Source: Ostreococcus lucimarinus (lineage: Eukaryota). From it: DNA of 64,000 nt. Below are positions 905 to 52,085 of the stretch, in pieces. Position numbers and translations under genes: made by a program. Positions within the stretch are counted from its first letter, which is position 1, and the number at the start of each line of letters is the position of its first letter. The notes below the pieces were generated by a model. It was not told the origin of the DNA, made no database searches, and saw only the letters and a program-made list of their open reading frames with translations. Where the stretch lies: NCBI GenBank assembly GCA_000092065.1, contig CP000595.1; one strand, written 5' to 3'.

Positions 905-2563
905 CTACGCCACGGATTCGTGCACGGGCTTGACGCGCGTCGTCGGCTCGACGCCCGCGAAGGTCTCGGCGACGACTTCGGCGGCGAGTTTTCCGGAGAG
1001 CACCGCGCCTTCCATGGACCCGAGAAACTTTTGCGACGTGTAATCACCCGCCAGGGTAAAGTTTTTGATCGGCGTGTGTTGACTCGGACGGAACTTGTTT
1101 CGTCCCGGAATCGCGGCGTACACGGAGCGTGGCGTCTTCACCACTGCAAACTTTCGAAGCTTGGCCCCCGACGCGCCGTCTTTACCCGCGCCGAGCTCAT
1201 CTGGGAACAGCGTTTCGAGCTCTTTCATCGTCGCCGCGACGATGTCTTCGTCGCTGGCGCCGATCCAGTTCACGTCGGAGCCTGCGCGTTTGTCGCACGG
1301 CGCGAAGACGAGCTCGAGCATGGAGCGGTCGTCGTCCTTATATTCTGCGCAGCATTCGGACATGTCCGCGTACACGCTGAGCAACGGCGAGCGACTGAAC
1401 ACAAGACCGTCGTACGGGCGCAACTTGCGGTCGAACCAGAGGTGCACGTTGATGACAGGGATGCCTTCGAGCTCGTTCAACTGCCTGAAAAACGGCATCG
1501 CTTTCCAAACGTCGGGAAGTTTTAATTTCAACGCGTCCACGGGCATGGCGGACACGTAATGGTCCGCCGTCATGATTTGACCGTCGCGCATCTTCACCCC
1601 CTCCACATTTCCGTCGGCGTCGACGAGAATTTCTTGCATGGGCGCGTCGGTGATGACTTTGCCGCCGCCCACGCGTTCGATGTGCTCCGCCATGGGAGCG
1701 CACAGCCTATCCGGTTGGTTTCCGTCCAAAAACGCAGTCTTGCTCCCGTGCGTCTCGTTGATGAACCGATTCATCGCCGTCAAAATGACCGTCATCGAGA
1801 GCTTATCAGCGTCGATAAAATCCAACGCCTTGCCCATGGCGATGAACAGCTCGTCGCGCACTCGCTTTGGCATGAAATTCTTCTTCATCCACTCCTCGCA
1901 CGACAACTCATCCTGGGCGTCGATGTAATCCTGTCCCCCGACCAACATGGGCACCAACGGCGCGCCCGTTCTCAATTTCTCGCTCCACGTCAACATCTTA
2001 TCGTTCGACAAAATCGCGTAACCCATATTGAGCGGCGCGGGCAAAGCCGGCGGAAAGTAAAACTTCGTAAACTCCCCGGGATAATCCTTCATCGCGAACG
2101 TCATCGCGTGCTCCTTCCACTGCAATCGATCCTCTATGTCGAGCTCTCGAAACAAATTCATCACATTCGGATACGCGCCGAAAAAAATGTGCAATCCAGT
2201 TTCGATCCAGTCGCCGTCGTCGTCTCGCCACGCGCTCACCTTGCCGCCCAGCGCCTTTCCTCGTTCGATCACCGTGGGCGCGCACCCCGCGTCGGCGAGA
2301 TACTTACCGCAGCTCAGGCCCGCGAGACCGCCGCCGATGACGAGCACCGTGGGCTTTTCCGGGGCGTCGTCGCGTCGCACGCGCGCGCGAAACGTCGCGA
2401 GCCTGGCGCTCTTCGCCTTGGCTTCTTGAAAGTTGGCGTTGGATTTGACGTCGAGGTCGGGCTTGGGGTAGTCGGCGCATCGCGTGCGAGGCGTCGCGGT
2501 GCGCGCGCGCGCGCCGGACGCGCGGGAGAGGGGGATGGGACGCGGCGCGAGGGCGGCGCGCAT
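905..2563 (-). CDS. PDS: 15-cis-phytoene desaturase (PDS), plastid-targeted
   Basis: The ORF 905..2614 begins with TTG; the first ATG is at 2563, which I verified as cat at 2561-2563. It has an N-terminal basic, Ala/Arg-rich transit peptide followed by the FAD dinucleotide fold VLVIGGGLAGLSCGKYLADAG. There is strong collinear similarity to plant and cyanobacterial PDS (GKVSAWRDDDGDWIETGLHIFFGAYPNVMNLFRELDIEDRLQWKEH...). Confidence 0.9.
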   Translation of the reverse strand: MRAALAPRPIPLSRASGARARTATPRTRCADYPKPDLDVKSNANFQEAKAKSARLATFRARVRRDDAPEKPTVLVIGGGLAGLSCGKYLADAGCAPTVIERGKALGGKVSAWRDDDGDWIETGLHIFFGAYPNVMNLFRELDIEDRLQWKEHAMTFAMKDYPGEFTKFYFPPALPAPLNMGYAILSNDKMLTWSEKLRTGAPLVPMLVGGQDYIDAQDELSCEEWMKKNFMPKRVRDELFIAMGKALDFIDADKLSMTVILTAMNRFINETHGSKTAFLDGNQPDRLCAPMAEHIERVGGGKVITDAPMQEILVDADGNVEGVKMRDGQIMTADHYVSAMPVDALKLKLPDVWKAMPFFRQLNELEGIPVINVHLWFDRKLRPYDGLVFSRSPLLSVYADMSECCAEYKDDDRSMLELVFAPCDKRAGSDVNWIGASDEDIVAATMKELETLFPDELGAGKDGASGAKLRKFAVVKTPRSVYAAIPGRNKFRPSQHTPIKNFTLAGDYTSQKFLGSMEGAVLSGKLAAEVVAETFAGVEPTTRVKPVHESVA

Positions 2564-2627
2564 GGCGACGTGTGCGGCCGGGACGCGGCGGGACGGGAGC
2601 GACGTATAATACAATCGAGTCGCTGGG

Positions 2628-6152: not shown

Positions 6153-9100
6153 TCATCGCTTGCCGCGACCGCGACCGCCGCGGCCGCCTTTGCCGCCGCG
6201 GCCGCCCTTGCCGGCGCGCTTGGCGGAAGCGCGTTCGCCGCGTGCGTCGGCGAGCTGACGCTTGTCGACGCTCGGGCCGCCGGCGTTGCCGCGATGATAC
6301 TTGCGAGCGACGACGACTTTCCGAGGCTTTTTGATCGCGCCGCTTGTCGCTCGGCGCGCCTTGGCGAAGACGCGCTCGATTTCCTTGGCTTTGCTGACGT
6401 CGGGAACGTCGTCTTGCTCGATGATGGCGGAGGCGCGTACTCGGGCTTGAGAAATCTTCGCCTCCGCGCGTTTCTTCTTACGCCATTTCGCTTCGGCGAC
6501 TTTCTTGATCGGGCGCGTGTTCACCGCGGCGAGCTGCGCCTTGGCCTCGGCGAGCTCAGCGGCGGTGTACTGCGGAATCGGCTTCATAAAGCGACGCTCG
6601 TCTTCAGCGAACCAGTCGGGCACGTCGTCGTCATCGAAGGCGTAGCGGTTGTACGCGTCTTCGATGAGTTCTTCGCGGTCCTTCTTGCGAATCATCTTCT
6701 TCCCTAAAGCTAAGATTCGCGCCCGAGTGTCGTCGGAGAGCTCGTCGACTTCGGAATCGTACCCGTAGCCCTCCGCGTCGGAGTCGCTATCTGTAGGCGG
6801 TTCCGCCTCGGCAGTGACGACTTCGAAATCGCCACCATCGACGGCTTTGCGTCTCTTTTGCCGCGTGGTGTCTTCATCGGATTCGTCGTCGTACGTGTCG
6901 TCGCGCGCGGCGCCCTTTCCGCCGCGACCCGATCCCTTCGTCTTCGCCTCCGACTTGGCTTTCTTTTCCTTTGCCTTGGCTCTGAGATCATCGAAATTTT
7001 CCTCTTCGTCTTCGGTCGCTTGTTTTTTCTTCTTTTTCTCCTTCTTGCTCGATTTGACTGGAACTTCCTCCTCGTCTTCATCGCTGTCTAAAGCTTCCGC
7101 GGGCGCGGCCTTGGCCTTCTTTCCGCTCGCAAACAAGTCGTTCGAGAACCACATGTCCGCAGCCTTGACGGCGTTTTTCTTTTGCTTAGTGCCGAGATCG
7201 ACGACGAGCGGGTTTGCATCTTTCTTCGACTTGGACTTTTTACCTTTAGGCGCGTCCTCGTCCTCGTCTGCGTCGTCCCACTCGAGCTCGTCGCTGTCCG
7301 ACTTGAATTCGTCGTCCGCGGGGTCGCTCGCGTCGTCGTCGTCTCCGTCTTCGTCGCTTGAGTCTTCGTCGTCCAACTCCCCCGCGCCGAGTTCAGTGCG
7401 CCTATCTCTACCCTTGCTAGCCTCGGTGAACTTTTCACCCTTTTTCTGTCGACGCGCCTTGTACATGTCCCACATGTCATCGACTTCTTTATCTAATCTT
7501 CGCTCGTCCTCTTCGGTGTCGGAATCGGCGTCCGAGTCGTCCTCTGGCTCCTCGTCGCTATCGCGCGCGGCGTCGATGCCCGGCGTCGGCGCCTTGGAGA
7601 CGACGTCGAGCGCACCTTTGGTTTTGATGCGCGCGAGCGAGAACAAATCCATCTCTTGCTCCACGATCGCCTCGCCGCTGCTCGCCAACCCTCTCGCGAC
7701 GCGAAGACGCTCCTTGGCTTTGATTTTAGCCCTCTTCTTCTTGTCTCGTCTGGCTTGGGCATCCATCGAGTTTTTCAACTCGCTCATCTCGTCCAAGAGT
7801 TGATCCTTTTCATCGCCGGCGTTTTCGTCATCGCTATCGCCAGCTTCTTCTTCTTCGCCGGATGACTCGTCGGAGGAATCCTCGTCGTCGTCTTCGCCGC
7901 GTTTGCCGCCTTTGCGAGCGTGCTTCTTCTTTTCGAGTCCCGCTTGCTTACGAATCGTCATGCGCCAACGAAGCAAGAGCTTGAAGTCAGCCTTTCCTAA
8001 AACACCAAGATCGCTCATCAACGAACGAATTTCATCCGTCGTCGTCGGGTGATTGTCGAGATCCATCCATCCTTCCTCGGGCGGTTCCAAACCTTTTCGA
8101 TTCTGCGTCGAGAAAAAGTCAAATCGGTCAGTCGTCGTCGTCGTCGTCGTCGGATCCCAGAGAGAAAAAGTCACAAAAGTACGAGCGATCGAAAGCCTCA
8201 GATGGGTAAACGGCATTGTACTATAGGTTTGTTTCAGCAGGGGCTCTGACCTCCCTTCAAACAAACTGTGAAGCTGTATCTTCATAAGCTTTCGATCGCC
8301 GCGAGAAAAACGTCGCGCTCTTGACGACGCACCTTGCCGTCCAAAATAAACGTGTGATGACTCCCAAGCATTTCTCCCGGCTTTTCGTTCACGATGAATT
8401 CTTCCGCCGTGCATTCTTTGTACAGCGTGGACACGCCGTCTTCGTAACCGCTACGATTCCGCTTTCGCTTGCCGTTGTCCTTCGTGACGTCGAGCGGCTG
8501 AATCTCCGCCTCGGTGTCCGCAAACAAATGCCTCGCATCCAATAATCTTGGATCAATCTTCGTCGGCGCCAGGTACCCACTACACACCACGTAAATTTCA
8601 GCCGAGGTTCCGCGCGACGCCACGGGCTTGGTGCTCTCAACCTTTTTAAACAACTGTTGAAACGCGTACAACAACGCGTGATACTCGACGCTCCGGAAAA
8701 CCTTCGTCACGAACCACCCTCCCGGCCCCAAAAACTCCGTCGCCAGCCGCAACGAATCCAACGTCAGCGCCGCCTGCGTGTACGACTCCTTCGCGAAGTT
8801 CCCACCGACGTTCGGCGCCCCATCGTGTATCACCACGTCGTACTTTAATCCCTGCGGCGTCACGCGTTTCAGCGCCGCGCGACAGCTCTGCGTCGTGATA
8901 TCCTCCACCAGCGTCGTCACCCCTCGAATCGGTCGAATCGGCGCTAAATCCACCCCCACGATCGTCGAGCTCATGGGCATGTATTTCTGCGCCACTTGCA
9001 GCCATCCACCGGGCGCGGCGCACAGATCCATGCACGCGCGCGCCTTTGACAAAAAGTCATACTTCCGGTTCAACTGCACGAGCTTAAACGCCGCGCGCGA

Positions 9101-9342
9101 GCGGAACCCTTGCTCCTTGGCGAGGTAGTAGTACTTATCTGCGATCGATCGCGCGCATCTCGCGCGCTCGCGGGTCAGTCTGGCGCTCGCGCGCGTCGAC
9201 GCGGCGTCGATTCGGTTTGCGGCGGCGGCGGCGGCGGCGCAACTCGCGCGCGGCTCGCGCGCGGCTCGCGCGTCGCGCGCGGCTCGCGCGCGGCGAACGA
9301 CGTCGTACCTAATCGATGCTTCCCCTTGGCGCGTTTGCCCAT
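6153..9342 (-). CDS. SPB1: AdoMet-dependent rRNA 2'-O-methyltransferase Spb1/FtsJ3; 3 exons (9342..9309, 9138..8333, 8102..6153)
   Basis: Two ORFs in different frames (8282..9412 and 6153..8414) both match Spb1: the FtsJ methyltransferase domain and the DUF3381/Spb1_C part. Exon 1 encodes [11 protein letters not shown] followed by a G; a GTACGA donor at 9308 and a CAG acceptor ending at 9139 rebuild the conserved start MGK...[11 protein letters not shown], as in yeast MGKTQKKNSKGRLDRYYYLAKE. A second intron (GTGCGT donor at 8332, CTGAC branch, CAG acceptor at 8103-8105) joins ...FILDGK to [12 protein letters not shown]...[27 protein letters not shown], in frame. The C-terminus is acidic and lysine-rich, as in Spb1. 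Confidence 0.8.
8103..8332 (-). other. Intron 2 of SPB1 (230 nt, lower GC, contains a (CGA)n microsatellite)
   Basis: GTGCGTCG donor, ACTGACC branch-like motif and a pyrimidine tract followed by CGCAG acceptor. Without splicing the reading frame hits a TGA at 8282-8284. The joined exons align with the yeast Spb1 region between the methyltransferase domain and the TTDEFRS motif. Confidence 0.6.
9139..9308 (-). other. Intron 1 of SPB1 (170 nt, GC-rich, internal CGCGCGGCTCG and GGC repeats)
   Basis: On the minus strand it runs GTACGACG...ACTGACCCGCGAGCGCGCGAGATGCGCGCGATCGATCGCAG. Removing it restores the conserved Spb1 N-terminus. An ACTGAC branch-site-like motif lies about 40 nt before the AG. 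Confidence 0.7.
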
Positions 9343-9490
9343 GCCTGCGACGACGCGAGGCGCGAGGCGCGGAGTGCGACGCGACGCCCGGGATACTTTG
9401 ACAAAAAGTCATGCTTCCGACAGCGTCGGACGCTCGAATGGATGGGAAAGGGCGATGCGCGAGCGATCAAAGGACATCGCGCGATTAATA

Positions 9491-10738
9491 TTAAGCGTCG
9501 ACGTTATCGGGCGTGCCCGGGGCGGGCGGGGCGTCGGGAGCGACGACGCCGAATTCTTCGGCGCGTTGCGCGACGAATCGAAGGAGGTCGTTGGCGCGCG
9601 CCTCGACGGCGACGGCGGCGTCGGCGTCGGCGAATGATTCCGGTGGGAACATCGTGGACAGTCGATTGAGCATGCGCAGGAGGTGCGTCGCGCCGTACGC
9701 CTCGCTCGGACGCGCGTAGACGGGGTTGTGCCATTCGTCCTTGTACAGCAAGGACGCGTCGAGCGCGGCGTTGAAGGACTCTTCAAAGCCTCGAACGATG
9801 GCGCGCGTGCGCGCGGCGGTGACTCGCTGCGTGGAGGTCTTCGTCCTCGCCGGATCGGCGCGATCGGCGACGAATCGGTCCAGAATGTTCGCGACGTTGA
9901 CTCGAGGGGCGACGTACGCGCGCGGATCGACGCCGCGCGAGTCTTCGTAGTCGCGAAGGAGCGCCTTGCGCAGCGCCGTCGGCACGTTGACGCGAATCGT
10001 CCTCGCGACGCGCTCTTCCTCCGTGAGCTCCGGATCCGCCGCCGAGGGCTGCGCCTTCGCCGCACCGCGCGCCTCCGCGCTCTTCCCGACCGCGCGCTTC
10101 GCGACCGCGCGCGCGGCGTCGCCGCGTCTCGCGCTCGCGCCTCTCGGCGCCGCGTTCGAGCTCGCGCGCGCCGCCGTCGCCGCCGTCGTCTTCGCCCCTC
10201 CCACTCGCCCTTCCTTCCGGTGCTTCGGCGCGATGCTCGCCTTCGCCGTCTCGGCCAAACGCCTTTCCCGCATCCTTCGCTTCGAGACGTGACTCTGTTC
10301 ATTCTTCCACAACCGCCGCCGTTCCCTCGCCTCCGCCTCCGTCTCGTTCGGCGTCGCCGCCGGCGCCTTCCTCCGCTTCCCCCCTCGCGCCTGCTCGACC
10401 GCCCCGTTCGCTCGCGCGCGTTTCCGTTTCTCCCGCGCTTCCGTCGCGTCGAGCGGTCGCAGCGCCGCCGCGTCGACCCACTCGTCGTCCCGTCTCGGGT
10501 GGTGGTACCCGCCGTACCTGACCAAGTACTCGCCTCGGCCGTCGTCTCGCGCCCGCGCGCCGACGATCGTCGCGTTCACCGCGTCGTCGCCCTCCAAACG
10601 AATCGCCTTCGCGCCGAGTTCAAATCCAGAAATCGCTTTCGACGTCGCGCGCGGCGTTCGCGCCGGTCGCGCGCGCGCGGCGACGTCCGGGACCGCGCGC
10701 GTCGCCGCGAGCGCCGCGGCCTCGGCCGCGGCGAGCAT
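9491..10738 (-). CDS. MRG/Eaf3/MORF4-family chromatin protein (chromo-barrel plus MRG domain)
   Basis: ATG at 10738 was verified. The N-terminal segment GEYLVRYGGYHHPRRDDEWV looks like a chromo-barrel or tudor-knot. The C-terminal MRG domain matches in VNVPTALRKALLRDYE, ILDRFV, IVRGFEESFNAALDASLLYKDEW and LLRMLNRLSTMF. Confidence 0.7.
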   Translation of the reverse strand: MLAAAEAAALAATRAVPDVAARARPARTPRATSKAISGFELGAKAIRLEGDDAVNATIVGARARDDGRGEYLVRYGGYHHPRRDDEWVDAAALRPLDATEAREKRKRARANGAVEQARGGKRRKAPAATPNETEAEARERRRLWKNEQSHVSKRRMRERRLAETAKASIAPKHRKEGRVGGAKTTAATAARASSNAAPRGASARRGDAARAVAKRAVGKSAEARGAAKAQPSAADPELTEEERVARTIRVNVPTALRKALLRDYEDSRGVDPRAYVAPRVNVANILDRFVADRADPARTKTSTQRVTAARTRAIVRGFEESFNAALDASLLYKDEWHNPVYARPSEAYGATHLLRMLNRLSTMFPPESFADADAAVAVEARANDLLRFVAQRAEEFGVVAPDAPPAPGTPDNVDA

Positions 10739-10974
10739 CGCGCGTCGAAAACGACGCGACGCGACGCGATGTGGAGATTTGAAATCTTTGAAATCTCGAC
10801 ACTCGAGCGCGCGCCGCGGGACGCGCGAGGCGTCGCGCGCGACGACGGACGCGCGCGCGGGCGCGCGGACGGACGACGCGCGACGCGCGACGCGCGAACG
10901 CGCGGCGCGAGCGACGCACGACGCGAATCATCGGAATCATTCATGACGGTTGGATAACGAACGACCGCGTTCGA

Positions 10975-12474
10975 ATGGCGACGACGACGACGACGCGATG
11001 CGACGACGACGACGGCGCTCGACGCGCGCGGGACGCGCGGGGGAAATTACTGGACGCGCGGGCGCGACGAGACGCCGCGCGCGAGGCGGTGCGAGAGGCG
11101 CTGACGCGACCGAGCGCGACGACGCGGTCGAACGCGGCGACGACGACGGCGCTCGAGGAGGGACGACGACGGCGCGTCGGGGACGCGCGACGCGAGATCG
11201 ACGCGCTGCGGGAGGTTTTGAAGATCGAGCGAGCGGCGCTGGAGGCGGCGCGGACGAGGATCGAGGCGATGGAGGCGACGGAGGCGGAGGCGTACGCGAC
11301 GCTTCGGGACGCCGAGCGCGCGGCGCTCGAGGTGGAGGTGCCGTGCGCCATGGCCGAGGTCGAGCACGAGTTTCGCGCGGTGAGCGCGGCGAGGGCGTTG
11401 GAGACGCGACGGGCGATGGTGAGGCTGCGAGCGCTGCTGCCGGTGAGGATCGATGAGGAACGAGGGAGCCGCGAGGCGCCGCGAGGCGTGCGCGCGTGCG
11501 AGTGGCGAGTGCCGGACGCGATCGACGATCGAGGGTTCGACGCGCACGAACTCGCGGCCGGGTTGGGGGCTTTGATGCATTTCAGCGCGCTCGCGTCGCG
11601 GTATCTCGACGCGCCGCGATTGCACAGAGGATCGCACGCGGCGTCGCAGTCGTACGTGTGGGCGCCGACGAGCGCGTGGGACGACGTCGACTCGTCGGTG
11701 TGGGAGAATAAAGGCACGGTTCACGTTCGTGATTTCGCGGGCGTGAATTCAGAGCGTTTGGAGCTATTTCTACCGCGCGCGGTCGTCGAAGGATCGTGCG
11801 ATCCCGCGTCGGTTCGCGAGAGCAGACTGCGGCTCAAGCGAGCGATTCGACTGTTGACGAGATCCGTCTCGGTCATGTGCGCGCACCAATCGCGAGAGTG
11901 CGGCGTGATCGCGCCGCCTAATTGGGGACCATTTTCTCAACTGTGTGCGCTCACTTCGGCGGTGGCGAAAGGAGAAGAGACGACGACGACGGCGCCGCAA
12001 CGCGCGCCCGCGCGGCGACAAACGCCGCCACAAATTTTGCGCACCTCCACGAACGATCGCCGCCGCGAGTCCGTGGAGAGTTTTGAATCACGAGACATGG
12101 TTCAACCCGTAACAGACGGCGCGCACCGCGGCGATGTGGTTAAACGCGCGGTGTCGTCGACAATAGCGGAAATTTCGCGAAACCATTGGTTTTCCGCTCA
12201 CGCGTCGACGCCGCGAGAATCCAACGCGATCGTCGACGACGACGAGTTGCTTTTTGAGACTTTAAACGCCGGTGATTTCTTCATCGATCACGATTCAGTG
12301 GACGATATCGGTGGCTGGGAGGCGATTCACGGCAATCGTTTGCGCCCAGCGGCGGTCGAAGACGCCGTCGCCCCAGTCTCGAACCGCGGCCTCGTCTTAC
12401 CGCCACCACCCAGCGCGGTGGACGACATAGAGCATTGGGAGCGCGCCATGCTGGTGGATAATGCTGGTGGATAA
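10975..12474 (+). CDS. Coiled-coil protein, possibly a UVRAG/Vps38/Atg14-family PI3K-complex subunit
   Basis: ATG at 10975 was verified. The N-terminal 140 aa are predicted coiled coil. The central segment ELAAGLGALMHFSALASRYLDAPRLHRGSHAASQSYVW resembles the conserved Atg14/UVRAG core. A TGTAA motif lies at 12505-12509, after the stop at 12472-12474. Confidence 0.4.
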   Translation: MATTTTTRCDDDDGARRARDARGKLLDARARRDAAREAVREALTRPSATTRSNAATTTALEEGRRRRVGDARREIDALREVLKIERAALEAARTRIEAMEATEAEAYATLRDAERAALEVEVPCAMAEVEHEFRAVSAARALETRRAMVRLRALLPVRIDEERGSREAPRGVRACEWRVPDAIDDRGFDAHELAAGLGALMHFSALASRYLDAPRLHRGSHAASQSYVWAPTSAWDDVDSSVWENKGTVHVRDFAGVNSERLELFLPRAVVEGSCDPASVRESRLRLKRAIRLLTRSVSVMCAHQSRECGVIAPPNWGPFSQLCALTSAVAKGEETTTTAPQRAPARRQTPPQILRTSTNDRRRESVESFESRDMVQPVTDGAHRGDVVKRAVSSTIAEISRNHWFSAHASTPRESNAIVDDDELLFETLNAGDFFIDHDSVDDIGGWEAIHGNRLRPAAVEDAVAPVSNRGLVLPPPPSAVDDIEHWERAMLVDNAGG

Positions 12475-12555
12475 CCAGTCAAGTTGTTGAACGGCGCGTG
12501 CGATTGTAATTCTACGATGTACACTACATTTCACTCGCGCCGAACGAAGCGTCTT

Positions 12556-13276
12556 TTACGACTTCACCAGACTCAAAATCTCCTCCACCCGCGCCCGCGT
12601 CTGCGCCAACGAGCACGACGTATCGATCACGTAATCCGCCTTCGCCCTCTTCTCCGCGTCCGGGATCTGACGCGCCGCGATCCCATTAAACTTCTCCTCC
12701 GTCATCCCGTCGCGTTTCAACACGCGCGCCCGCTGCGTCGCCTCGTCTCCCGTGCTCACCACGCACACCGCATCCACGCTCGCCTCGTACTCTTTCTCGT
12801 ACAACAACGGAATATCAAACACCACCACGTCATCGTTCGCGTGCGCCTCGACGAACGCCTCTCTCGCGCGTTCCACCAGCGGGTGCACCGCCGACTCGAG
12901 CGCGCGCATCTTCGCGTCGTCCCCGATGACGATCGCCCCGAGCTTCGCGCGGTCAATCGCCCCCGTCGCGGCGTCTAAGACGCCATCACCGAACATCTCG
13001 GCCACGACGGCGACGGCGGCGCCGTCGGGGGCGTATAAATCGTACACGACCTGCGCGCGGGACGACGAGCGGGACGGTTGGGTCAGCGCGCGGCTTCTCT
13101 CGAGTCTTCGACGCGTCGCGAAAGGGCGACGTCGACGCGAGCGCACGCGCGAAGGCTCGACGCACCGCGTCGGCGTCCATGACGGCCACACCGAGGTCGC
13201 GAAACATGGCGGCGACGGTGGACTTGCCCATGCCTATGGAGCCGGTGAGCCCGAGTCGCGTCGTCGAGCGCGACAT
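12556..13276 (-). CDS. coaE: Dephospho-CoA kinase (CoaE/DPCK); 2 exons (13276..13166, 13050..12556)
   Basis: Exon 1 encodes MSRSTTRLGLTGSIGMGKSTVAAMFRDLGVAVMDADA, which contains the P-loop. Exon 2 is in another frame and encodes VVYDLYAPDGAAVAVVAEMFGDGVL...HPLV.... The spliced junction DADAVVYDLYAPDGAAV lines up residue for residue with human COASY DSDHLGHRAYAPGGPAY. The 115-nt intron 13051..13165 has a GTGCGT donor, GCTGAC branch and CGCGCAG acceptor. Confidence 0.85.
13051..13165 (-). other. Intron of the dephospho-CoA kinase gene (115 nt)
   Basis: Its length is 3n+1, which accounts for the frame change between the two ORF-track pieces (12986..13393 and 12556..13191). It carries the consensus GT...CTGAC...CAG signals. 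Confidence 0.8.
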
Positions 13277-13478
13277 GACGACGCGCGCGCGACTATGAGC
13301 GCGCGAGAGACGCGCGATGCGCGCGAGGGTTCGAGTTATGCGCGTCGTCGACGTCGTGGGCGCTCGCGATCGATCGGTCGAACCGACGCGCATGCGCCGA
13401 GCGAGGCGCGTTGTGGCGCGCGGCGGCGCGCGCTTCTCAAATCGACGAAATCATCACAAACTCAAAGCTCGCGCTAGT

Positions 13479-13922
13479 TTACTTCTTGGCGAAGCCGAGA
13501 CCGTTATCCTCGGCGTAACGCGCCATGAATCGCATGAATCTGTCCCAATCTCTCTCCGTCTTCATCACGTATCGCGCCTCGATGCCGCTCGGTTTACCGT
13601 TGATGAACTTCGCGTTGACGTCCACCGTGCTCATCTCTCCCTCCTCGTCGTTCAGGAACATCCCCGTGATGTCACCTTGACCGTTTTCAAACACATCCGG
13701 TTCGGCGAAGATGAAGAACGCCGTGCCGTTGGAGCCGTCCTTGCTTCGCGTGAGTTTCACTTCGGGGACCGAGGTTTCGTTTTGACCCTTGACGAACTGA
13801 ATCGACGTCGTCCCCGCGCGCGTCACCGCGCGCGACGCGCGAGTCGCGCGCGCGACGCCGCGGTTCATCGTGGACGGTCTGTGGGCGATCATCGCCCGAG
13901 AGGCGAGCGTTTGCGCGTGCAT
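13479..13922 (-). CDS. psb28: Photosystem II assembly factor Psb28, plastid-targeted
   Basis: The ORF starts with TTG at 13952; the first ATG is at 13922 and was verified. The mature part, [32 protein letters not shown]...[60 protein letters not shown], is near-identical to Psb28 over its whole length. It is preceded by a transit peptide of about 40 aa. Confidence 0.9.
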
Positions 13923-14227
13923 CGCGCGGTTCGTTCGCGGCGAATGGGACAAAGTTGCGTGACGTCGACGGTCGTTTCGACGGTCGTGCGGCGCGCGCGA
14001 GCGGTCGTGCGGCGGTTTCGCGGGCCGTGTGCGCGCGCGGAAGGTCGGTCGCGAAGACTGCGCTTCGCGGGCGAGATCGGCGGTCGTGCGAGCGCGCGCG
14101 TCGATGTGCGGCGAGTGGGCGCGTTATCCAGAGGCGTCTCGGCGCGTGGCGTCGCGGCGAAGTGATATTGAAATGAATGTGCGCGTGCGCGCGAAATTGC
14201 GTGAGTCGATCGTCGTCGATGCGCTCG

Positions 14228-15601
14228 CTAGTCGTTGCGCCCGTCGACGACGCCGGCGTCGTCTCTGAAATTATCTTGAAGCTTGTCCAGACGCTTGGCC
14301 ACCTTTTCGAGCTGTCGCTGTTCCTTTTTGGTGAGCGTCGAGTTTTTATCATCCTTTGTGACGAAACCGGCGGGACGGCCCGGACCGGAGTTGACGAGAC
14401 CGCTCTCGAGCCGTCGAAGCTTCTCTTCCAGAGTCACGGCCTCGGTGGTGAAGAAGGATTCGATCCGTTTGACGTCTTTTTCGATGTCTTTTTCGATCAC
14501 CTCGGCGTCGTCGACGAGGGTGTCGAGATCCGTCGGCTTGGTGAGCTTGAGCTCGGGGGCGGGCTTGCACGAATTATCGGTGATGACGAAGTCGCTCCAC
14601 TTCACGCCCACCTTTTTGGACGCGGCTTCGAGATCGGGGATCCACTCTGGCTTGAGATCGGGCGTCGTCGCGTACACCGTGGCGCCGCCGTATCCGTCCC
14701 ACGCGTCGTTGGTACCGCGATAGTAAATGTACACCCACTCCCCTTCCTTGTACGCGGGGATGTACCAATCGTCTTGATAGTGCAACATCACGTTCCCGTT
14801 GTTGTGCAAGATGGCTTTACCGTCGGGTTCTTGGTAAAATCTCTGCACGTCGTTGCGTTCGTAGAATTGCCCATTCGGCCGGTTCACGCGCCAGTTAATC
14901 TTAATGTACATCTTCCCATCGTCTCCTTTGTCGAAAAAGTGTTCTTGGCAATCGAAGGTGTCAAAGTCCTTATTCAATCCGGCGACGATGTACCAGCGCT
15001 TTTCCTTCACCATGGTGTCGATCGTGAATCCATCCGCGAGCGCGTCGAACGGCGGCACAGGATACGTTCCGTCGTCCTTTCGCTGCGCCACGCACGACTT
15101 CTCCGTCACCGCGCACGTGTTGAACGTCCCGACCGCTTGCGAGGCGTACAAATCACCGCATCGAATCTGACAGTCCCCCTCGTCCGGCTGTCCGAAGCAT
15201 CCCTGCAGGCACACCAAATCTTCCAAACACTTTTCATCCGTCACGCACTTCGCGAGCTCCTTCCCGCAGTTTTGCAACAAACACGCCCCCGTGTCCTTCA
15301 TCTCCGCCTGCTTCGCCGCGCTCACCGCCAGCGCGCTTCCCGGCGCCACCGTCATCGCCGACGCCGCGATCGCGACGGCGGCGAGCGCGCTCGCCGCGCC
15401 TCGCGCGACGTCGCCCAGCGCCGTCGTCCCGTCGTCCCGCGCGCCGTCGTCCCGCATCGCCGCGCGCGCCCGCGAGATCGGCGTCCGCGTCACCGCGCGC
15501 GCCTTCGACCCCTTCCGCGCGCTCGCCGATCGCGCGCTCGCCGCGCGCGACCGCGAAAACATCGCGCCGTCGATCGCCCGCATCGCCGCGACCGTCGCCA
15601 T
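14228..15601 (-). CDS. VDE: Violaxanthin de-epoxidase (plant-type VDE), thylakoid-lumen targeted
   Basis: It has the Cys-rich N-terminal domain (CLLQNCGKELAKCVTDEKCLEDLVCLQGC...CQIRCGDLY...FNTCAV), the lipocalin core (FDTFDCQEHFF...WRVN...YQDDWYI...YYRGTNDAWDGYGGA) and the Glu-rich C-terminal tail. The ORF reaches up to 16123 but that would overlap ZEP. I chose the ATG at 15601, which gives a bipartite transit/lumen signal starting MATVAAMRAI... and ending at an ALA-VSAAK cleavage motif. Confidence 0.85.
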   Translation of the reverse strand: MATVAAMRAIDGAMFSRSRAASARSASARKGSKARAVTRTPISRARAAMRDDGARDDGTTALGDVARGAASALAAVAIAASAMTVAPGSALAVSAAKQAEMKDTGACLLQNCGKELAKCVTDEKCLEDLVCLQGCFGQPDEGDCQIRCGDLYASQAVGTFNTCAVTEKSCVAQRKDDGTYPVPPFDALADGFTIDTMVKEKRWYIVAGLNKDFDTFDCQEHFFDKGDDGKMYIKINWRVNRPNGQFYERNDVQRFYQEPDGKAILHNNGNVMLHYQDDWYIPAYKEGEWVYIYYRGTNDAWDGYGGATVYATTPDLKPEWIPDLEAASKKVGVKWSDFVITDNSCKPAPELKLTKPTDLDTLVDDAEVIEKDIEKDVKRIESFFTTEAVTLEEKLRRLESGLVNSGPGRPAGFVTKDDKNSTLTKKEQRQLEKVAKRLDKLQDNFRDDAGVVDGRND

Positions 15602-15839
15602 TCGCCTCGTCCCTCGCGTCCTCGCGCCGCGTTCGACCCTTTCGGCGCGCCGACGCGCCTCGCGCGCGCGCTCGCGCGTTCCCGCGCGCGCTCGCGGCGT
15701 CTCGCGCGCTCGCGGCGCGTTTTGCGGCGCCGCGCGCGTCGCCGCGAACGGATAAGACGACCCGCGATCGCCGCACACGCGCGCGCGCCGTCGTCGCTCG
15801 CGCCGAGCGCGCGCGTCGCGACGGCTCGTCGCACGCGCC
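15602..15839. promoter_or_regulatory. Shared bidirectional promoter region of VDE (-) and ZEP (+)
   Basis: This 238 bp lies between the chosen VDE ATG (15601, minus) and the ZEP ATG (15840, plus). The ZEP ATG is embedded in a CATG palindrome (15839-15842). Confidence 0.5.
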
Positions 15840-17486
15840 ATGCGCTCGACCGTCGCGCCGTCGCGCGCGACCGCCGCGCGCGCGACGCCGGCGCCGTCCC
15901 CGCGCGCGGTGCGCTCGACCGCGGCGTCGCGTCCCGCGCGCGCGCCGCGCGCGATCGTCGCGCGCGCGCGACCGCGCGACCGCGCGCGAGCGCCGCGCGG
16001 ACTCGCGCGCGCGCGCGCGGTCTCGGACGACGTCGCGATCGACGCGACGAAGCCCAAGGTGCTGGTCGCCGGCGGCGGGATCGCGGGGCTCGTCGCGGCG
16101 GCGGCGTGCCGACGCAAGGGCATGGAGGTCAGGGTGTTCGAGAAGGTGAAAAAGTACGAACCGTTCGGTGGACCGATTCAGCTGCAGTGCAACGCGCAGG
16201 GAGCGCTGGATTCGATCGATCCCGCGATGGCGGAGGCGGTGACGGCGAAGGGGACGATCACGGGCGATCGCGTCAACGGGTTGCTGGACGGCGTGAGCGG
16301 GGAGTGGTTCTATCGGTTCGACACGAGAAAACCGTGCCATGATAATGGATTGCCGCTGACGCTGGTGCTGTCGAGGTTCGAACTGCTGGACATACTGTCG
16401 AACGGGGTCGGGGCGGAGAACATCGAGATGGGGACGGTGGTGGAGAGGTACGAACACAGGGGCGAAAAGGTGGTGGCGACGCTCACGGACGGACGAGAGT
16501 TCGAGGGAGACGTGCTGATCGGGGCGGATGGGATTCGGTCCAAGCTTCGGGCGCAGATGCGCGGCGCGGATCCGGAGAAGCCGCCGCTCGCGTACGCGGG
16601 CTACGCGGTGTACACGGCGGTGTGCAAGTACTCGCAGCCGCATCGAGAGCCCCAGCACACGGACCCGAACAAGGTCGGCTACCAAGTCTTCCTCGGTCCG
16701 AAGCAATACTTCGTCTCGTCGGACGTCGGGAACGGCGAACAGCAGTACTATGCCTTCTTGGAAGTGCCTCCGGGCGGGGACGACGAGTTCGCCAAGTGCG
16801 AAAAGTGGGAAAACTATCGCGAGATGCTCATGGACCGCTTCAGCGGCTGGGCGCCGGCGGTCATGGAGCGTCTCGAGTGCACGCGACCGGAAGACGTCGA
16901 GCGCCGCGACGTGAACGATATTCTCCCCGATCCTCGCTGGGTCGACGGTCGCATGGCGTTGCTCGGCGATTCCGCGCACGCGGTGCAACCGAACCTCGGC
17001 CAAGGCGGCGGCCAAGCCATCGAGAGCGCGTACGTCTTGGCGGATGAGCTTTCCAAGTGCGAGGGCGGCAAGGGCGTGCAGAACGCGTTGATGGCGTACG
17101 CGTCTCGTCGATTCTTGCGCACGGCCTCCATTCACGGCTTGTCGCGATTCTCGTCGTTGATGAATACGTTTTACCGACGACACCTCGGCGACGAACCGTA
17201 CGACTGGTACCCCGAGCCGGTCAAAAACATGTGGAACACCGTCGCCAAGGCGAAGATTCCGCACCCTGGCTCAGTGATCGGTCAAATCGCGCTCATCGGC
17301 ACCATGCCCATCATTTTAGAGTACGTCGGCGCCGGTTACGGCTTGCCCGGCGTCTTGGGCGGCGCGTCGACGGGCAACGGCAAGGATCGCGTTCCGCGCT
17401 CCCAAGTCCCGGGCATCTCCGCCCCTCTTCGAGACTTGACCGCCGAAGATTTCAAGATGCGTGGCATTCCCGGTTTCGCCAAGTGA
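15840..17486 (+). CDS. ZEP: Zeaxanthin epoxidase (ZEP/ABA1-type FAD monooxygenase), plastid-targeted, no C-terminal FHA domain
   Basis: ATG at 15840 was verified. After a transit peptide it has the FAD fold VLVAGGGIAGLVAAAACRRKG. It matches plant ZEP strongly and collinearly in GPIQLQCNAQGALDSID, GDRVNGLLDGVSGEWFYRFDT, GADGIRSKLR, YQVFLGPKQYFVSSDVGNGEQQYYAF, LLGDSAHAVQPNLGQGGGQAIE and KIPHPG. It ends GIPGFAK with no FHA-like segment. Confidence 0.9.
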   Translation: MRSTVAPSRATAARATPAPSPRAVRSTAASRPARAPRAIVARARPRDRARAPRGLARARAVSDDVAIDATKPKVLVAGGGIAGLVAAAACRRKGMEVRVFEKVKKYEPFGGPIQLQCNAQGALDSIDPAMAEAVTAKGTITGDRVNGLLDGVSGEWFYRFDTRKPCHDNGLPLTLVLSRFELLDILSNGVGAENIEMGTVVERYEHRGEKVVATLTDGREFEGDVLIGADGIRSKLRAQMRGADPEKPPLAYAGYAVYTAVCKYSQPHREPQHTDPNKVGYQVFLGPKQYFVSSDVGNGEQQYYAFLEVPPGGDDEFAKCEKWENYREMLMDRFSGWAPAVMERLECTRPEDVERRDVNDILPDPRWVDGRMALLGDSAHAVQPNLGQGGGQAIESAYVLADELSKCEGGKGVQNALMAYASRRFLRTASIHGLSRFSSLMNTFYRRHLGDEPYDWYPEPVKNMWNTVAKAKIPHPGSVIGQIALIGTMPIILEYVGAGYGLPGVLGGASTGNGKDRVPRSQVPGISAPLRDLTAEDFKMRGIPGFAK

Positions 17487-17745
17487 TCGCCACGCACCGG
17501 CGCGATCGATCCATCGATTCGCCGCCGACGAAGAGCGACGCCTCGCGTCGACTCAACCCACACCACCGCCGCTGTACCATCAAACGTCACCATCTCACGT
17601 TGAAGAACGTCTGAATTCACGAACAAAGACATTTACCGTACTGAACTATTATTAATAACCACGACGACACATCGTATCGCTCGGCGCGCCGCTCGCTCGA
17701 CGCGCCGCTCGCTCGACGCGTCCGCAGAGCGCGACGCCGATCCGC

Positions 17746-18831: not shown

Positions 18832-18835
18832 GTAC

Positions 18836-18873
18836 CGATAGCTATAGCTATAGATTTTGTAGATTTTGTTACA
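18836..18873. repeat. AT-rich convergent 3'-UTR spacer with short tandem repeats (GATAGCTATAGCTATAG and TAGATTTTGTAGATTTTGT) and a minus-strand TGTAA motif
   Basis: It lies between the stop of the 17746..18831 (+) gene and the stop of MCRS1 (-) at 18899. The plus-strand ttaca at 18869-18873 is a minus-strand TGTAA about 26 nt past the MCRS1 stop. Confidence 0.5.
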
Positions 18874-18898
18874 GAACGATTGTAGTATTAGGTGTGTT

Positions 18899-19816: not shown

Positions 19817-19883
19817 CGCGCGCGAGTGAGGGATTCGATGTGACAAGGACGCGCCGCGGGACGGCGACGCCGCGCGGCGACGG

Positions 19884-22148: not shown

Positions 22149-22230
22149 CGCGCGTCGCGTCGCGCGAGAGAGTGACGCGAAAAGCGATGCTCGACGCGCG
22201 CGTCGACACTTCGACGCGCCGACGCGCGCG

Positions 22231-33270: not shown

Positions 33271-33271
33271 C

Positions 33272-42329: not shown

Positions 42330-42406
42330 CCCGCGGTGTGACGATTACACGCCGCACTCGCCGACGCGCGACGACGCGCGACGACGCGCGTGCCGGCGTT
42401 CTCGAG

Positions 42407-46894: not shown

Positions 46895-46927
46895 ATGATT
46901 TGTTGAGTAAGATATGAGTTGAAATTT

Positions 46928-48388: not shown

Positions 48389-48561
48389 CGTCGCGCGCCG
48401 GTCTCTCGCGTCGACGCGTCGACGCGTCGATTCGTCGATTCGCGTCGCTATTTTTAGCCGCGACGCGTCCGGTCGCCCCGCGCCCTCGCCGACGACGATC
48501 GCGCCCGAACGCGTCGCGCGATCGCGCGCGGCGGTATTATTTAACGCGCGCGTTTCGTTCG

Positions 48562-48678
48562 CGCGTCGTTCACGCGTCGTTTTCGCGTCGTTTCGGCGTC
48601 GTTTTCGCGTCGTTTTAAATCTTCAAGTCTCGAGACGCTCGAGCGAAACGATCGATTTTCGCGTCTGTGCGCGACGTT

Positions 48679-48707
<29 letters not shown>
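48562..48707. repeat. Simple repeats in a divergent promoter: (CGCGTCGTTT)n about 5 copies at 48562-48616 and (CGTCG)5 at 48681-48707
   Basis: They are directly visible between the CFAP45-like gene (start 48388, minus) and DGAT2 (start 48718, plus). Confidence 0.7.
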
Positions 48708-48709
<2 letters not shown>

Positions 48710-48717
48710 TCGTCGCG

Positions 48718-49767: not shown

Positions 49768-49878
49768 GATTTGTTAGACACATCGAGCGGCCGCGCGATG
49801 TTAAATATAACGTTACAACGACGACAACGACGACAAACGCGGTCCGACGCGGCGCGCTATCGCCGCCTCAAACGCGCG

Positions 49879-50523: not shown

Positions 50524-50651
50524 GCGCGCGGGTGACGCGACGTTCGTCGCGCCGATTCGATGCGCGGTCGGACGAGGCGCGCGGCGCGGCGCGGCGCGGA
50601 GTGAGGCGAGCCCCTGCGGCGGTTTGGAATTGGTTTCGCGGCCAACAAGAG

Positions 50652-52085
50652 CTAAAGGAAATCGAACAATCGCAAAATGGCGTCGAAGACGCCGACGGCG
50701 ACTTTTTCATCCATCACGGCGTCGACATCGATGGCGACTTCGTCAGCCATGAGGGCGGTTTCCGCGATTTTCTGAAACGCGTATTGCGCGGCGATTAACG
50801 CCGCGATGGCGGCGGTTTTCGCGTTGACGGCGTTGGGAGAGCTAATGTCGGAATCTTCGCGTTGACACGCGTTCATGGTGTTCACGTGCTCGCCCTCGTC
50901 GTCGCGAATGTTGCTAAAGACGTCGAACAGCGATCTGATTTGCGGACGTCTCAAGCGCACCTCTCTCGCGGTTTGGAACTCGTCGAAAAGGTACAAATCG
51001 GCGGCTTCGTAATATTCGACGGCGATTCTCGGCGCGGGCATGCTCTTCAGGAGCTCGGCGTTTTGATCGACGAATTGCCCGTACGTGTCCACGGCGTGTC
51101 CCTCGATGAGCTCTGAGAAGTTATACGCCAACGCCGGAGATATGAGCCACAGCGCGACGAGCACGAAGTAATACACGATGGCGGCGTGCTGGCCCAAAAA
51201 ACGATCCCGCCAACACGCGTCGCCGCCGAGCGACTCCATGACGAGCAGATGATGATACTCGTTCCATTCCTCCGCGAAGTGCACTTTACGAAGCTCCGAG
51301 CTTCGTCGCCACCATCCCAAGATTTCATAAAACGTCAGCATGGACGTGTAACTAAAGTACGGCATCCTCGCGACGGTTTCAAGAAACCAAAACCGTTGCA
51401 CCGGCTGCGTCTCGTCGAACAATTTATCCAACATCACGCACAGCGCCACGTACGGCACCTTCAGTATCCAAGGCGCCGAAATCTCCGGCCTCGCTCGCTC
51501 CCGCGCCCAAATCGCGTCCGCGTCCAATCGCAGCGCGTCCATCTTCGCCCGCAACTCGGCCGGCATCGCGTCTCGCGCCTTCTCCGTCTCTGGCGTATTC
51601 GCGTCGAAATACGCCATCATCTCTCTGAGCTCGCGCGCGAAGTTCTCGGTGCCGCTCTGCAAAAACCCTCGCGGCACACCGTGTCGTTCGATGTCGATGT
51701 AGCACCCTCGCAAGCTCGCGATGTAGCCGTACGAACACGAAAACTCGACGTCGTCGTCGTCGTCTCGCGACGCCTCCCTCGCGAGCGTCGCCGCCGCGTA
51801 CGCCAGCTCCGCTTTCGCCAGCGCCGCCTTCGCCGCGTCGCGAGACGCCCGCAGGGCGTCGACGTCGGTGTTTCGCGCGATCGCGGCCCTCGTTTCGCGC
51901 GTCGTCGCGCTCGCGAAGGCGTCGGCGACGTCTTCCGGGACGTCGGCACCGTCCTCGACGCCGTCGCGCGTCGCGCGCGCGCGACGCCGCGCGCGCGACG
52001 TCGCGAGACGCCGACCGCGCCTCGGTCCGTTCGCGCGCGCGACGACGCGCGCGCGCGACGGCGCGACGGCGCGCGGCGTCGTCAT
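50652..52085 (-). CDS. PTOX: Plastid terminal oxidase (PTOX/IMMUTANS; plastoquinol oxidase, di-iron carboxylate family), plastid-targeted
   Basis: All iron-ligand motifs are present: LETVARMPYF, EEWNEYHHLL, ELIEGHAVDTY and DDEGEHV. It is collinear with Arabidopsis IMMUTANS from WIIKLEQ to the C-terminus. The ORF runs up to 52943 but would overlap the divergent gene; the first non-overlapping ATG at 52085 was verified and gives a transit-peptide-like MTTPRAVAPSRARV.... Confidence 0.85.
   Translation of the reverse strand: MTTPRAVAPSRARVVARANGPRRGRRLATSRARRRARATRDGVEDGADVPEDVADAFASATTRETRAAIARNTDVDALRASRDAAKAALAKAELAYAAATLAREASRDDDDDVEFSCSYGYIASLRGCYIDIERHGVPRGFLQSGTENFARELREMMAYFDANTPETEKARDAMPAELRAKMDALRLDADAIWARERARPEISAPWILKVPYVALCVMLDKLFDETQPVQRFWFLETVARMPYFSYTSMLTFYEILGWWRRSSELRKVHFAEEWNEYHHLLVMESLGGDACWRDRFLGQHAAIVYYFVLVALWLISPALAYNFSELIEGHAVDTYGQFVDQNAELLKSMPAPRIAVEYYEAADLYLFDEFQTAREVRLRRPQIRSLFDVFSNIRDDEGEHVNTMNACQREDSDISSPNAVNAKTAAIAALIAAQYAFQKIAETALMADEVAIDVDAVMDEKVAVGVFDAILRLFDFL

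What the first reader, a model, noticed from the sequence alone, without database searches (positions are those of the whole stretch)
905..52085. Enrichment of carotenoid and photoprotection genes in one 64-kb window (PDS, VDE, ZEP, PTOX, Psb28)
Phytoene desaturase (905..2563) and its obligate electron-acceptor partner PTOX/IMMUTANS (50652..52085) lie in the same window as the xanthophyll-cycle pair and Psb28. With roughly 39 genes in the window and perhaps tens of carotenoid-pathway genes in a genome of about 10,000 genes, five in one window is more than expected by chance. It may reflect a co-regulated chromatin neighbourhood, or be a remnant of ancestral linkage.
Basis: inference. Interest (0 to 1): 0.6.

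Follow-up and report, generated by a model that had tools for sequence, protein, structure and literature searches.

The report
Known VDE–ZEP pair plus chance neighbours
The five pigment and photoprotection genes are all there, but only the back-to-back xanthophyll-cycle pair (with Psb28 beside it) is an old, conserved arrangement, which is already described; phytoene desaturase and PTOX sit nearby only in Ostreococcus, so the "cluster" is mostly coincidence.

Summary
The window is Ostreococcus lucimarinus nuclear DNA, collinear with O. tauri chromosome 16. All five genes are confirmed: PDS 905..2563(-), Psb28 13479..13922(-), VDE 14228..15601(-), an FHA-less ZEP 15840..17486(+) and PTOX 50652..52085(-).

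The five are not independent events. ZEP and VDE are head-to-head across 238 bp, and Psb28 lies 305 bp downstream of VDE. In 80 environmental loci of Ostreococcus, Micromonas and Bathycoccus types, this trio keeps the same order (46/46 for ZEP, 69/70 for Psb28). It sits inside a block of housekeeping genes that is largely collinear too. A VDE/ZEP tandem is already published for diatoms.

PDS and PTOX are different. Their orthologues in Micromonas and Bathycoccus have unrelated neighbours. In Micromonas-like assemblies PTOX is on a different megabase-scale contig from VDE. Compared with Micromonas, PDS looks like a single relocated gene.

With VDE/ZEP counted once, three carotenoid units in some 38-gene window is expected in 6-19% of random genomes. 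Published O. tauri diel data put the five genes in different long-day peak classes, from ZT20 to ZT12.

Verdict: a known conserved pair plus lineage-specific coincidence; low interest.

The parts
905..2563 (-). Phytoene desaturase (PDS), 552 aa, single exon
   Evidence: Adjacent to the kinase-ARM gene only in Ostreococcus-type genomes.
6153..22520 (.). Old collinear block: Spb1, MRG, ATG14, CoaE, Psb28, VDE, ZEP, unknown gene, MCRS/FHA, UTP25. Shared with Micromonas and Bathycoccus, with small insertions and losses.
   Evidence: tblastn of window proteins on L007, L008, L010 and L036-L115
13479..13922 (-). Psb28 (photosystem II assembly factor), 147 aa, 305 bp downstream of VDE on the same strand
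   Evidence: Downstream of VDE on the same strand in 69 of 70 loci.
14228..15601 (-). Violaxanthin de-epoxidase (VDE), 457 aa: Cys-rich N-terminal domain, lipocalin domain, charged C-terminal tail
15602..15839 (.). 238-bp intergenic region shared by the divergent VDE and ZEP genes (inferred bidirectional promoter). Contains GGATAAG at 15750..15756.
   Evidence: Sequence read; the motif is kept in four Ostreococcus lineages only.
15840..17486 (+). ZEP-type FAD monooxygenase without FHA domain, 548 aa, head-to-head with VDE
   Evidence: Divergent and upstream of VDE in 46 of 46 loci. The O. tauri orthologue ostta16g00670 is treated as ZEP in PMC12216367.
50652..52085 (-). Plastid terminal oxidase (PTOX, AOX family), 477 aa
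   Evidence: Local neighbours (methyltransferase, EF-hand, DGAT2, NTE) are shared only with other Ostreococcus.

Best explanation
The window is ordinary Ostreococcus nuclear DNA. One small, ancient gene arrangement happens to lie within 50 kb of two functionally related genes.

The maintained unit is the head-to-head ZEP/VDE pair, the two opposing enzymes of the xanthophyll cycle. They are separated by 238 bp, with Psb28 305 bp downstream of VDE. The pair most likely shares a bidirectional promoter region (inferred). This fits their transcripts peaking within about 1 h of each other in short days and one sampling interval (4 h) apart in long days in O. tauri.

The trio has been inherited unbroken since the common ancestor of Ostreococcus, Bathycoccus and Micromonas. 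It sits inside a wider collinear block of housekeeping genes.

PDS (11 kb away) and PTOX (35 kb away) are on this chromosome segment only in Ostreococcus. In the other genera their orthologues are elsewhere. Comparison with Micromonas and O. tauri chromosome 17 indicates that PDS moved as a single gene.

So the apparent five-gene enrichment is one known conserved pair, one tightly linked neighbour and two lineage-specific coincidences. It is not a carotenoid super-cluster or a co-regulated domain.
For: - Gene identities.
- Organism and collinearity with O. tauri chr16 (PDS 16g00590, Psb28 00650, VDE 00660, ZEP 00670, PTOX 00930).
- Trio conserved: M. pusilla CCMP1545; Mb-scale Micromonas-like contigs; a Bathycoccus-like contig with GC 0.49; 80 metagenome loci with ZEP divergent in 46/46 and Psb28 downstream in 69/70.
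- PDS elsewhere: M. commoda CP001576.1 and three Micromonas-like contig sets share TFIID31-(rotamase)-PDS-unk-M76-GUN4-2OG-UROD. The Bathycoccus-like PDS has no window gene within 6-10 kb.
- Orthology of these PDS and PTOX genes: NJ trees.
- PTOX elsewhere: in assemblies kelso_4 and chicken_3, VDE is on contig_14488/contig_13436 and PTOX on contig_3277/contig_16226. Each gene is at least 140-157 kb from its contig end, so the two are at least 300 kb apart even if the contigs abut.
- O. tauri chr17 has TAFII31-rotamase-unnamed-GUN4-2OG-UROD without PDS.
- Chance estimate.
- Expression: PMC12216367.
- The VDE/ZEP tandem in diatoms is published.
Against: - The naive count (4 strict carotenoid genes of about 30 in one 38-gene window) is rare, at about 0.9% genome-wide.
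- PDS and PTOX transcripts are nearly co-phased in short days in O. tauri (22.4 h and 23.1 h).
- PDS has three different contexts in three genera, so parsimony cannot say which is ancestral. The Ostreococcus arrangement could be the old one.
- That the VDE and PTOX contigs in the metagenome assemblies come from one organism is inferred from co-occurrence, similar GC (0.66-0.68) and similar divergence. It is not proven.
- No genome-wide permutation on the real O. lucimarinus gene map could be run.
- The long-day peak classes of VDE, Psb28 and PTOX were inferred from their position in the supplementary file. Only PDS and ZEP were read directly.
Confidence: 0.78

Rival explanations
1. The whole 50-kb segment is a co-regulated chromatin neighbourhood. 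PDS, Psb28, VDE, ZEP and PTOX are kept together because a shared domain gives them coordinated light or diel expression.
For: All five O. tauri orthologues are rhythmic. PDS and ZEP are both in the LD ZT8 set. PDS and PTOX have short-day transcript phases of 22.4 h and 23.1 h, and VDE and ZEP 4.9 h and 4.1 h.
Against: - Long-day peak classes differ across the five: ZT20, ZT4, ZT8, ZT8, ZT12.
- About 80% of the O. tauri transcriptome is diel-rhythmic, so rhythmicity is not specific (PMC12216367 abstract).
- Housekeeping neighbours (DnaJ-X, MRG, EF-hand, DGAT) appear in the same peak lists.
- The LD ZT8 set also holds photosynthesis genes from chromosomes 14-20, and carotenoid/MEP genes named in the paper lie on chromosomes 2, 5, 8 and 14.
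- The linkage is absent in Micromonas and Bathycoccus.
Confidence: 0.06
2. All five genes were linked in the mamiellalean ancestor. Ostreococcus retains the ancestral state, while Micromonas and Bathycoccus independently lost PDS and PTOX from the segment.
For: The central block is clearly ancestral. The three different PDS contexts need two relocations under any scenario, so the Ostreococcus state is as parsimonious as the others. Several divergent Ostreococcus species share the arrangement.
Against: No genome outside Ostreococcus shows PDS or PTOX near VDE: none in 51 non-Ostreococcus VDE loci with up to 10 kb of flank, and PTOX is on another Mb-scale contig. Nothing indicates selection for the linkage. 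The kinase-ARM gene that separates Spb1 from PDS was detected after Spb1 only in Ostreococcus-type loci.
Confidence: 0.1
3. ZEP-VDE-Psb28 is a selectively maintained three-gene photoprotection/PSII-repair module. Psb28 is kept next to VDE for function, not merely by inertia of local gene order.
For: - Of about 11 adjacent gene pairs between UTP25 and PDS, ZEP-VDE and VDE-Psb28 are the ones never interrupted in any of the three genera.
- Insertions or losses occur on both sides: inositol phosphatase between the unknown gene and ZEP, and vasohibin in place of CoaE, in Micromonas.
- Psb28 is downstream in 69/70 loci.
Against: The sample is small. The flanking housekeeping genes are nearly as stable. 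One Micromonas-type locus has Psb28 inverted (L071). The apparent VDE-Psb28 fusion protein is a gene-calling artefact. In O. tauri long days Psb28 peaks at ZT4 and VDE at ZT12. No literature link was found.
Confidence: 0.15

Closest known systems
VDE/ZEP3 and VDL2/ZEP1 gene clusters of diatoms (Phaeodactylum tricornutum; Coesel 2008 PMC2483416; Bai 2022 PMC9499517; Frommolt 2008 as cited in PMC12449192)
   Same: A violaxanthin de-epoxidase gene sits directly next to a zeaxanthin-epoxidase-type gene that lacks the FHA domain. The adjacency is conserved across species and is interpreted as an inherited VDE/ZEP tandem. In P. tricornutum the paired genes show similar light-induced transcript kinetics.
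   Different: Here there is a single pair rather than duplicated pairs. It is in a green alga (Mamiellales) and has Psb28 immediately downstream. From my own recollection, not checked here, the Frommolt 2008 abstract already notes a syntenic xanthophyll-cycle gene pair shared by prasinophytes and chromists. The paper was not held in the library.
Plant and fungal biosynthetic gene clusters (metabolic operon-like clusters)
   Same: Several non-homologous genes of one pathway lie within tens of kb.
   Different: Those clusters are contiguous or nearly so, co-regulated, and usually for specialised metabolism. Here the four or five genes are interspersed with about 33 unrelated housekeeping genes, are not co-phased, and the outer members are not linked in sister genera.
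General microsynteny among Mamiellales (Ostreococcus, Bathycoccus, Micromonas)
   Same: The UTP25 to Spb1 segment, including the trio, is collinear in all three genera.
   Different: Within this segment only the ZEP-VDE-Psb28 junctions are never interrupted. Other junctions carry lineage-specific insertions or losses.

Membership tests
Conserved VDE/ZEP tandem (xanthophyll-cycle gene pair) | A bona fide VDE gene (Cys-rich N-terminal domain plus VDE lipocalin domain) | tested here: met
   PF07137 2.8e-96; 3CQN 2.6e-46; 13 invariant Cys in the 17-sequence alignment
Conserved VDE/ZEP tandem (xanthophyll-cycle gene pair) | The immediately adjacent gene is a ZEP-family flavin monooxygenase | tested here: inconclusive
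   FAD_binding_3 class A monooxygenase. It is named ZEP by JGI and by the O. tauri study. It lacks the FHA domain, as diatom ZEPs do. Ostreococcus has a second ZEP paralogue, which another study labels as ZEP. No phylogeny against characterised ZEPs and no enzyme assay was done here.
Conserved VDE/ZEP tandem (xanthophyll-cycle gene pair) | The adjacency is conserved across species | tested here: met
   46/46 loci across three genera; M. pusilla genome; O. tauri gene IDs 16g00660/00670
Conserved VDE/ZEP tandem (xanthophyll-cycle gene pair) | Similar expression of the two genes | tested here: inconclusive
   O. tauri short-day transcript phases are 4.9 h and 4.1 h. In long days the genes fall in the ZT12 and ZT8 peak sets. 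The paper's text describes VDE rising early in the day and ZEP later.
Biosynthetic (carotenoid) gene cluster spanning PDS to PTOX | Statistically significant co-location of pathway genes | tested here: not met
   With VDE/ZEP as one unit, P(any window with 3 or more units) = 0.06-0.19 for K=20-30. This is a simulation on an idealised gene map, not the real annotation.
Biosynthetic (carotenoid) gene cluster spanning PDS to PTOX | Linkage conserved in related genomes | tested here: not met
   PDS and PTOX orthologues lie in unrelated neighbourhoods or on different contigs in Micromonas and Bathycoccus types.
Biosynthetic (carotenoid) gene cluster spanning PDS to PTOX | Co-expression of the members | tested here: not met
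   Four different long-day peak classes among the five O. tauri orthologues
PTOX (plastid terminal oxidase) rather than mitochondrial AOX | AOX-family di-iron carboxylate protein that groups with plastid-type oxidases | tested here: inconclusive
   PF01786 1.7e-27; iron ligands present, with ExxH at 276 and 397. In the NJ tree it sits in a clade of mamiellalean sequences alongside oxidases of other green algae. No mitochondrial AOX outgroup was included, and plastid targeting was not tested.

The most novel reading that the evidence does not exclude
ZEP-VDE-Psb28 is a selectively maintained three-gene photoprotection/PSII-repair micro-cluster in Mamiellales, driven from short shared regulatory regions. 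A GGATAAG element in the 238-bp divergent promoter is a candidate. On this reading, Ostreococcus secondarily recruited PDS, by single-gene relocation, and PTOX to the same chromosome arm under selection for coordinated pigment and redox control in high or fluctuating light.
Probability: 0.1. Interest if true: 0.45.

Novelty: already known. Interest (0 to 1): 0.18.

Why it matters
If the five-gene cluster were real, it would be a rare case of a primary-metabolism pathway cluster in a green alga and a handle on chromatin-level regulation of photoprotection. The evidence says otherwise. What remains is confirmation that the xanthophyll-cycle gene pair is an old, stable unit across picoprasinophytes. 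This is consistent with the published idea that chromist algae inherited a VDE/ZEP tandem. Two small additions are that Psb28 travels with the pair throughout Mamiellales, and that PDS moved as a single gene between two otherwise conserved neighbourhoods. The case also shows how a tight conserved pair can inflate apparent pathway enrichment in compact genomes.

Tried and rejected
- **VDE-Psb28 fusion.** Hit P0118 carries both Pfam domains. This is a gene-caller artefact: the ORF runs through a poly-T intergenic stretch in L008, and three other Bathycoccus-type loci have stop codons there.
- **Long ORFs.** VDE 14228..16123 and PTOX 50652..52742/52943 are high-GC read-through. Homologue lengths and exact matches support 14228..15601 and 50652..52085.
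- **L031 and L033.** I first took these for Bathycoccus. Their GC is 0.59-0.60 and their local gene order matches the window, so they are other Ostreococcus species and not an independent test.
- **Frommolt 2008.** The paper is not held in the library, and text searches for an explicit statement on prasinophyte VDE/ZEP synteny found nothing.
- **Distant relatives.** The metagenome scan with a VDE alignment returned only mamiellalean loci among its best 80, so no test outside the order was possible.
- **GGATAAG motif.** It is kept in four Ostreococcus lineages but absent from other Ostreococcus clades and from Micromonas, and occurs in only 1 of the 14 distinct Bathycoccus-type intergenic regions examined, so it is only a lead.
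- **PDB search.** It gave no match for PTOX at E up to 1e-3.
- **Micromonas cross-check.** M. commoda VDE and M. pusilla PDS could not be located by name, so PDS and VDE were never placed in one Micromonas assembly.
Full report
**What the window is.** The window has 58-68% G+C and is densely packed with mostly intron-less ORFs. The PDS ORF is identical to Ostreococcus lucimarinus CCE9901 XP_001421697, and the other genes fall in clusters that contain O. lucimarinus or 'Ostreococcus sp. lucimarinus' entries. Most are housekeeping:
- DnaJ-X, a kinase-ARM protein, Spb1, MRG, ATG14, CoaE
- MCRS/FHA, UTP25, an aminotransferase, RPN5
- an FtsH-like AAA protein, deoxyhypusine hydroxylase, DGAT2, an EF-hand protein
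- an NTE/patatin lipase, a pseudouridine synthase, NMD3

**The five genes.**
- PDS (905..2563, -) passes the NCBIfam equivalog cut-off for 15-cis-phytoene desaturase (671 against 569 bits). It matches rice PDS 5MOG at 2.8e-176.
- Psb28 (13479..13922, -) matches PF03912 and TIGR03047.
- VDE matches PF07137 at 2.8e-96 and the Arabidopsis VDE lipocalin domain 3CQN at 2.6e-46. Homologues are 430-520 aa, and the closest is 457 aa. The gene is therefore 14228..15601, not the 631-aa ORF that overlaps ZEP.
- The ZEP-type gene (15840..17486, +) is a class A flavin monooxygenase with no FHA domain, as in diatom ZEPs. JGI and the O. tauri literature call it zeaxanthin epoxidase. Ostreococcus has a second ZEP paralogue, which another study uses as 'ZEP'. 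Which paralogue runs the cycle is not settled.
- PTOX (50652..52085, -) has the AOX domain and the di-iron ligands.

**Anatomy.** ZEP and VDE are head-to-head with 238 bp between their start codons. Psb28 follows VDE on the same strand after 305 bp. PDS is 11 kb beyond Psb28, separated by CoaE, ATG14, MRG, Spb1 and the kinase-ARM gene. PTOX is 33 kb on the other side of ZEP.

**Is it more than chance?** I simulated a 7651-gene, 21-chromosome genome with 38-gene windows.
- Five members of a 30-gene category in one window never occurred in 4000 runs. Four occurred in 0.9% of runs.
- VDE/ZEP is one evolutionary unit, as shown below. Counting three units (PDS, VDE/ZEP, PTOX), some window reaches that count in 6% (K=20) to 19% (K=30) of random genomes.
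- Admitting Psb28 requires a broader 'photoprotection/PSII assembly' category. With K=60-120, four units occur in 14-83% of genomes.
- The category was also defined after reading the genes.
- The real gene map was not available, so this is an approximation.

**Synteny of the trio.** In M. pusilla CCMP1545 the order is UTP25, MCRS/FHA, an unknown gene, [inositol phosphatase], ZEP(-), VDE(+), Psb28(+), [vasohibin], ATG14, Spb1 (GG663743.1).
- The same order occurs on Mb-scale Micromonas-like contigs.
- A Bathycoccus-like contig (GC 0.49) has ZEP, VDE, Psb28, CoaE, MRG, Spb1.
- A metagenome scan with a VDE alignment returned 80 loci, which I classed by GC and identity as 29 Ostreococcus-, 21 Micromonas- and 30 Bathycoccus-like.
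- ZEP is divergent and upstream of VDE in 46/46 loci where it is seen. Psb28 is downstream on the same strand in 69/70. No locus with enough flank lacks either gene.
- The flanking housekeeping genes are largely collinear too, so this is an old synteny block. Only the two junctions of the trio are never interrupted.

**What is already published.** A VDE/ZEP3 cluster and a VDL2/ZEP1 cluster are described for Phaeodactylum and other diatoms and are interpreted as duplicates of a VDE/ZEP tandem (PMC2483416, PMC9499517, PMC12449192). From memory, Frommolt et al. 2008 already reported the syntenic pair in prasinophytes. I could not retrieve that paper.

**Synteny of PDS and PTOX.** Other Ostreococcus species share the window's arrangement. 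L031 has ATG14, MRG, Spb1, kinase, PDS. L033 has ZnF, NTE, an unknown gene, methyltransferase, PTOX, EF-hand, DGAT, TPH. O. tauri gene IDs run 16g00590, 00650, 00660, 00670 and 00930 for the five genes.

Outside Ostreococcus the picture changes.
- The M. commoda PDS (CP001576.1) and three sets of Micromonas-like contigs all show FtsH, AlaRac-N, TFIID31, (rotamase), PDS, an unknown gene, M76, GUN4, 2OG-Fe, UROD.
- A Bathycoccus-like PDS (GC 0.50) has none of the window's genes within 6-10 kb.
- An NJ tree groups these PDS sequences as one mamiellalean clade apart from Cymbomonas and chromist-type PDS, supporting orthology.
- O. tauri chromosome 17 starts TAFII31 (00060), rotamase (00070), unnamed (00080), GUN4 (00100), 2OG (00120), UROD (00130), with no PDS. 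PDS therefore moved alone between two otherwise conserved neighbourhoods. With three contexts in three genera, the direction cannot be inferred.
- For PTOX, the Micromonas-like orthologue (56% identity, within the mamiellalean clade) is flanked by a short-chain dehydrogenase, an ascorbate-type peroxidase, a pseudouridine synthase, a prenyltransferase and an NDH2.
- In two assemblies that PTOX lies on a different Mb-scale contig from VDE. Both genes are at least 140 kb from their contig ends, so they are at least 300 kb apart.
- That both contigs belong to one organism is inferred from co-occurrence, GC and divergence.

**Expression.** The O. tauri multi-omics study lists VDE as ostta16g00660 and ZEP as ostta16g00670. 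It describes VDE rising early in the day and ZEP later.
- Its Table S2 puts PDS and ZEP in the long-day ZT8 set, which I read directly.
- By position in the file, Psb28 falls in ZT4, VDE in ZT12 and PTOX in ZT20.
- Table S5 gives short-day transcript phases of PDS 22.4 h, PTOX 23.1 h, ZEP 4.1 h and VDE 4.9 h.
- The five are therefore not one co-expression unit. VDE/ZEP are close in phase, and so are PDS/PTOX in short days.
- MEP and early carotenoid genes on chromosomes 2, 5 and 8 peak at ZT0 in long days and ZT20 in short days, close to the short-day phases of PDS and PTOX.
- About 80% of transcripts cycle. The housekeeping neighbours appear in the same peak lists.

**Conclusion.** Its statistical weight comes from counting a known, tightly linked unit several times. 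The maintained feature is the divergent ZEP/VDE pair with Psb28 in tow, probably served by a short shared promoter region (inferred). The proximity of PDS and PTOX is specific to Ostreococcus and is best read as coincidence arising from gene relocation in a compact genome rich in plastid-function genes. As a comparison, the Micromonas PDS lies next to GUN4, UROD and an FtsH gene, which is an equally suggestive but different 'cluster'. The finding is ordinary and largely already explained, so I score its interest as low.

Noticed in passing
window 15750..15756 (and GGATAA near 14118..14123): A GGATAAG (I-box/GATA-like) heptamer lies in the 238-bp ZEP/VDE intergenic region. It is retained in four Ostreococcus lineages whose flanking sequence has diverged. 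It is absent from other Ostreococcus clades and from Micromonas, and is seen in only one Bathycoccus-type locus. A GGATAA also lies upstream of Psb28.
   Followed up: partly
L009, L019, L034 (Micromonas PDS loci); O. tauri chr17 IDs 00060-00130: In Micromonas PDS lies between a rotamase and an unknown gene, next to GUN4, a 2OG-Fe dioxygenase and UROD. O. tauri chromosome 17 has the same block without PDS. This indicates a clean single-gene relocation of PDS.
   Followed up: partly
L013-L018 (Micromonas-like PTOX loci): PTOX is flanked by an ascorbate-peroxidase-type gene and, about 8 kb away, by an NDH2-type NAD(P)H dehydrogenase with an EF-hand. NDH2 is a possible chlororespiration partner. 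This is another suggestive but unverified functional neighbourhood.
   Followed up: no
window 6153..9412 (-): The Spb1 rRNA methyltransferase is split into two overlapping ORFs: FtsJ plus the N-terminal part of DUF3381 at 8282..9412, and the C-terminal part of DUF3381 plus Spb1_C at 6153..8414. This implies a short intron or a frameshift. The same split appears in gene calls on related contigs.
   Followed up: no
window 12556..13191 (-): The CoaE ORF from its first ATG starts at profile position 52 of the dephospho-CoA kinase domain. The gene probably has an upstream exon or a different start; related contigs-196 aa.
   Followed up: no
L008 2687..4240; L091, L095, L100: A database protein carrying both VDE and Psb28 domains is a gene-calling artefact in a Bathycoccus-like contig. 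Bathycoccus Psb28 also has an intron that Ostreococcus lacks.
   Followed up: yes
L071 (Micromonas-like, GC 0.71): This is the only locus of 70 in which Psb28 is on the opposite strand, about 2 kb downstream of VDE.
   Followed up: no
window 17746..18831 (+): An uncharacterised 361-aa gene next to ZEP has weak homologues at the same position in Micromonas (28-31% identity) but was not detected in Bathycoccus-type loci. It has no Pfam domain.
   Followed up: no
PMC12216367 Table S5 (supplementary file 6): The annotation column of the rhythmic-protein table looks shifted relative to the gene IDs. For example, ostta16g00660 (VDE) is labelled Vps52/Sac2. Only the IDs and phases were used here.
   Followed up: no
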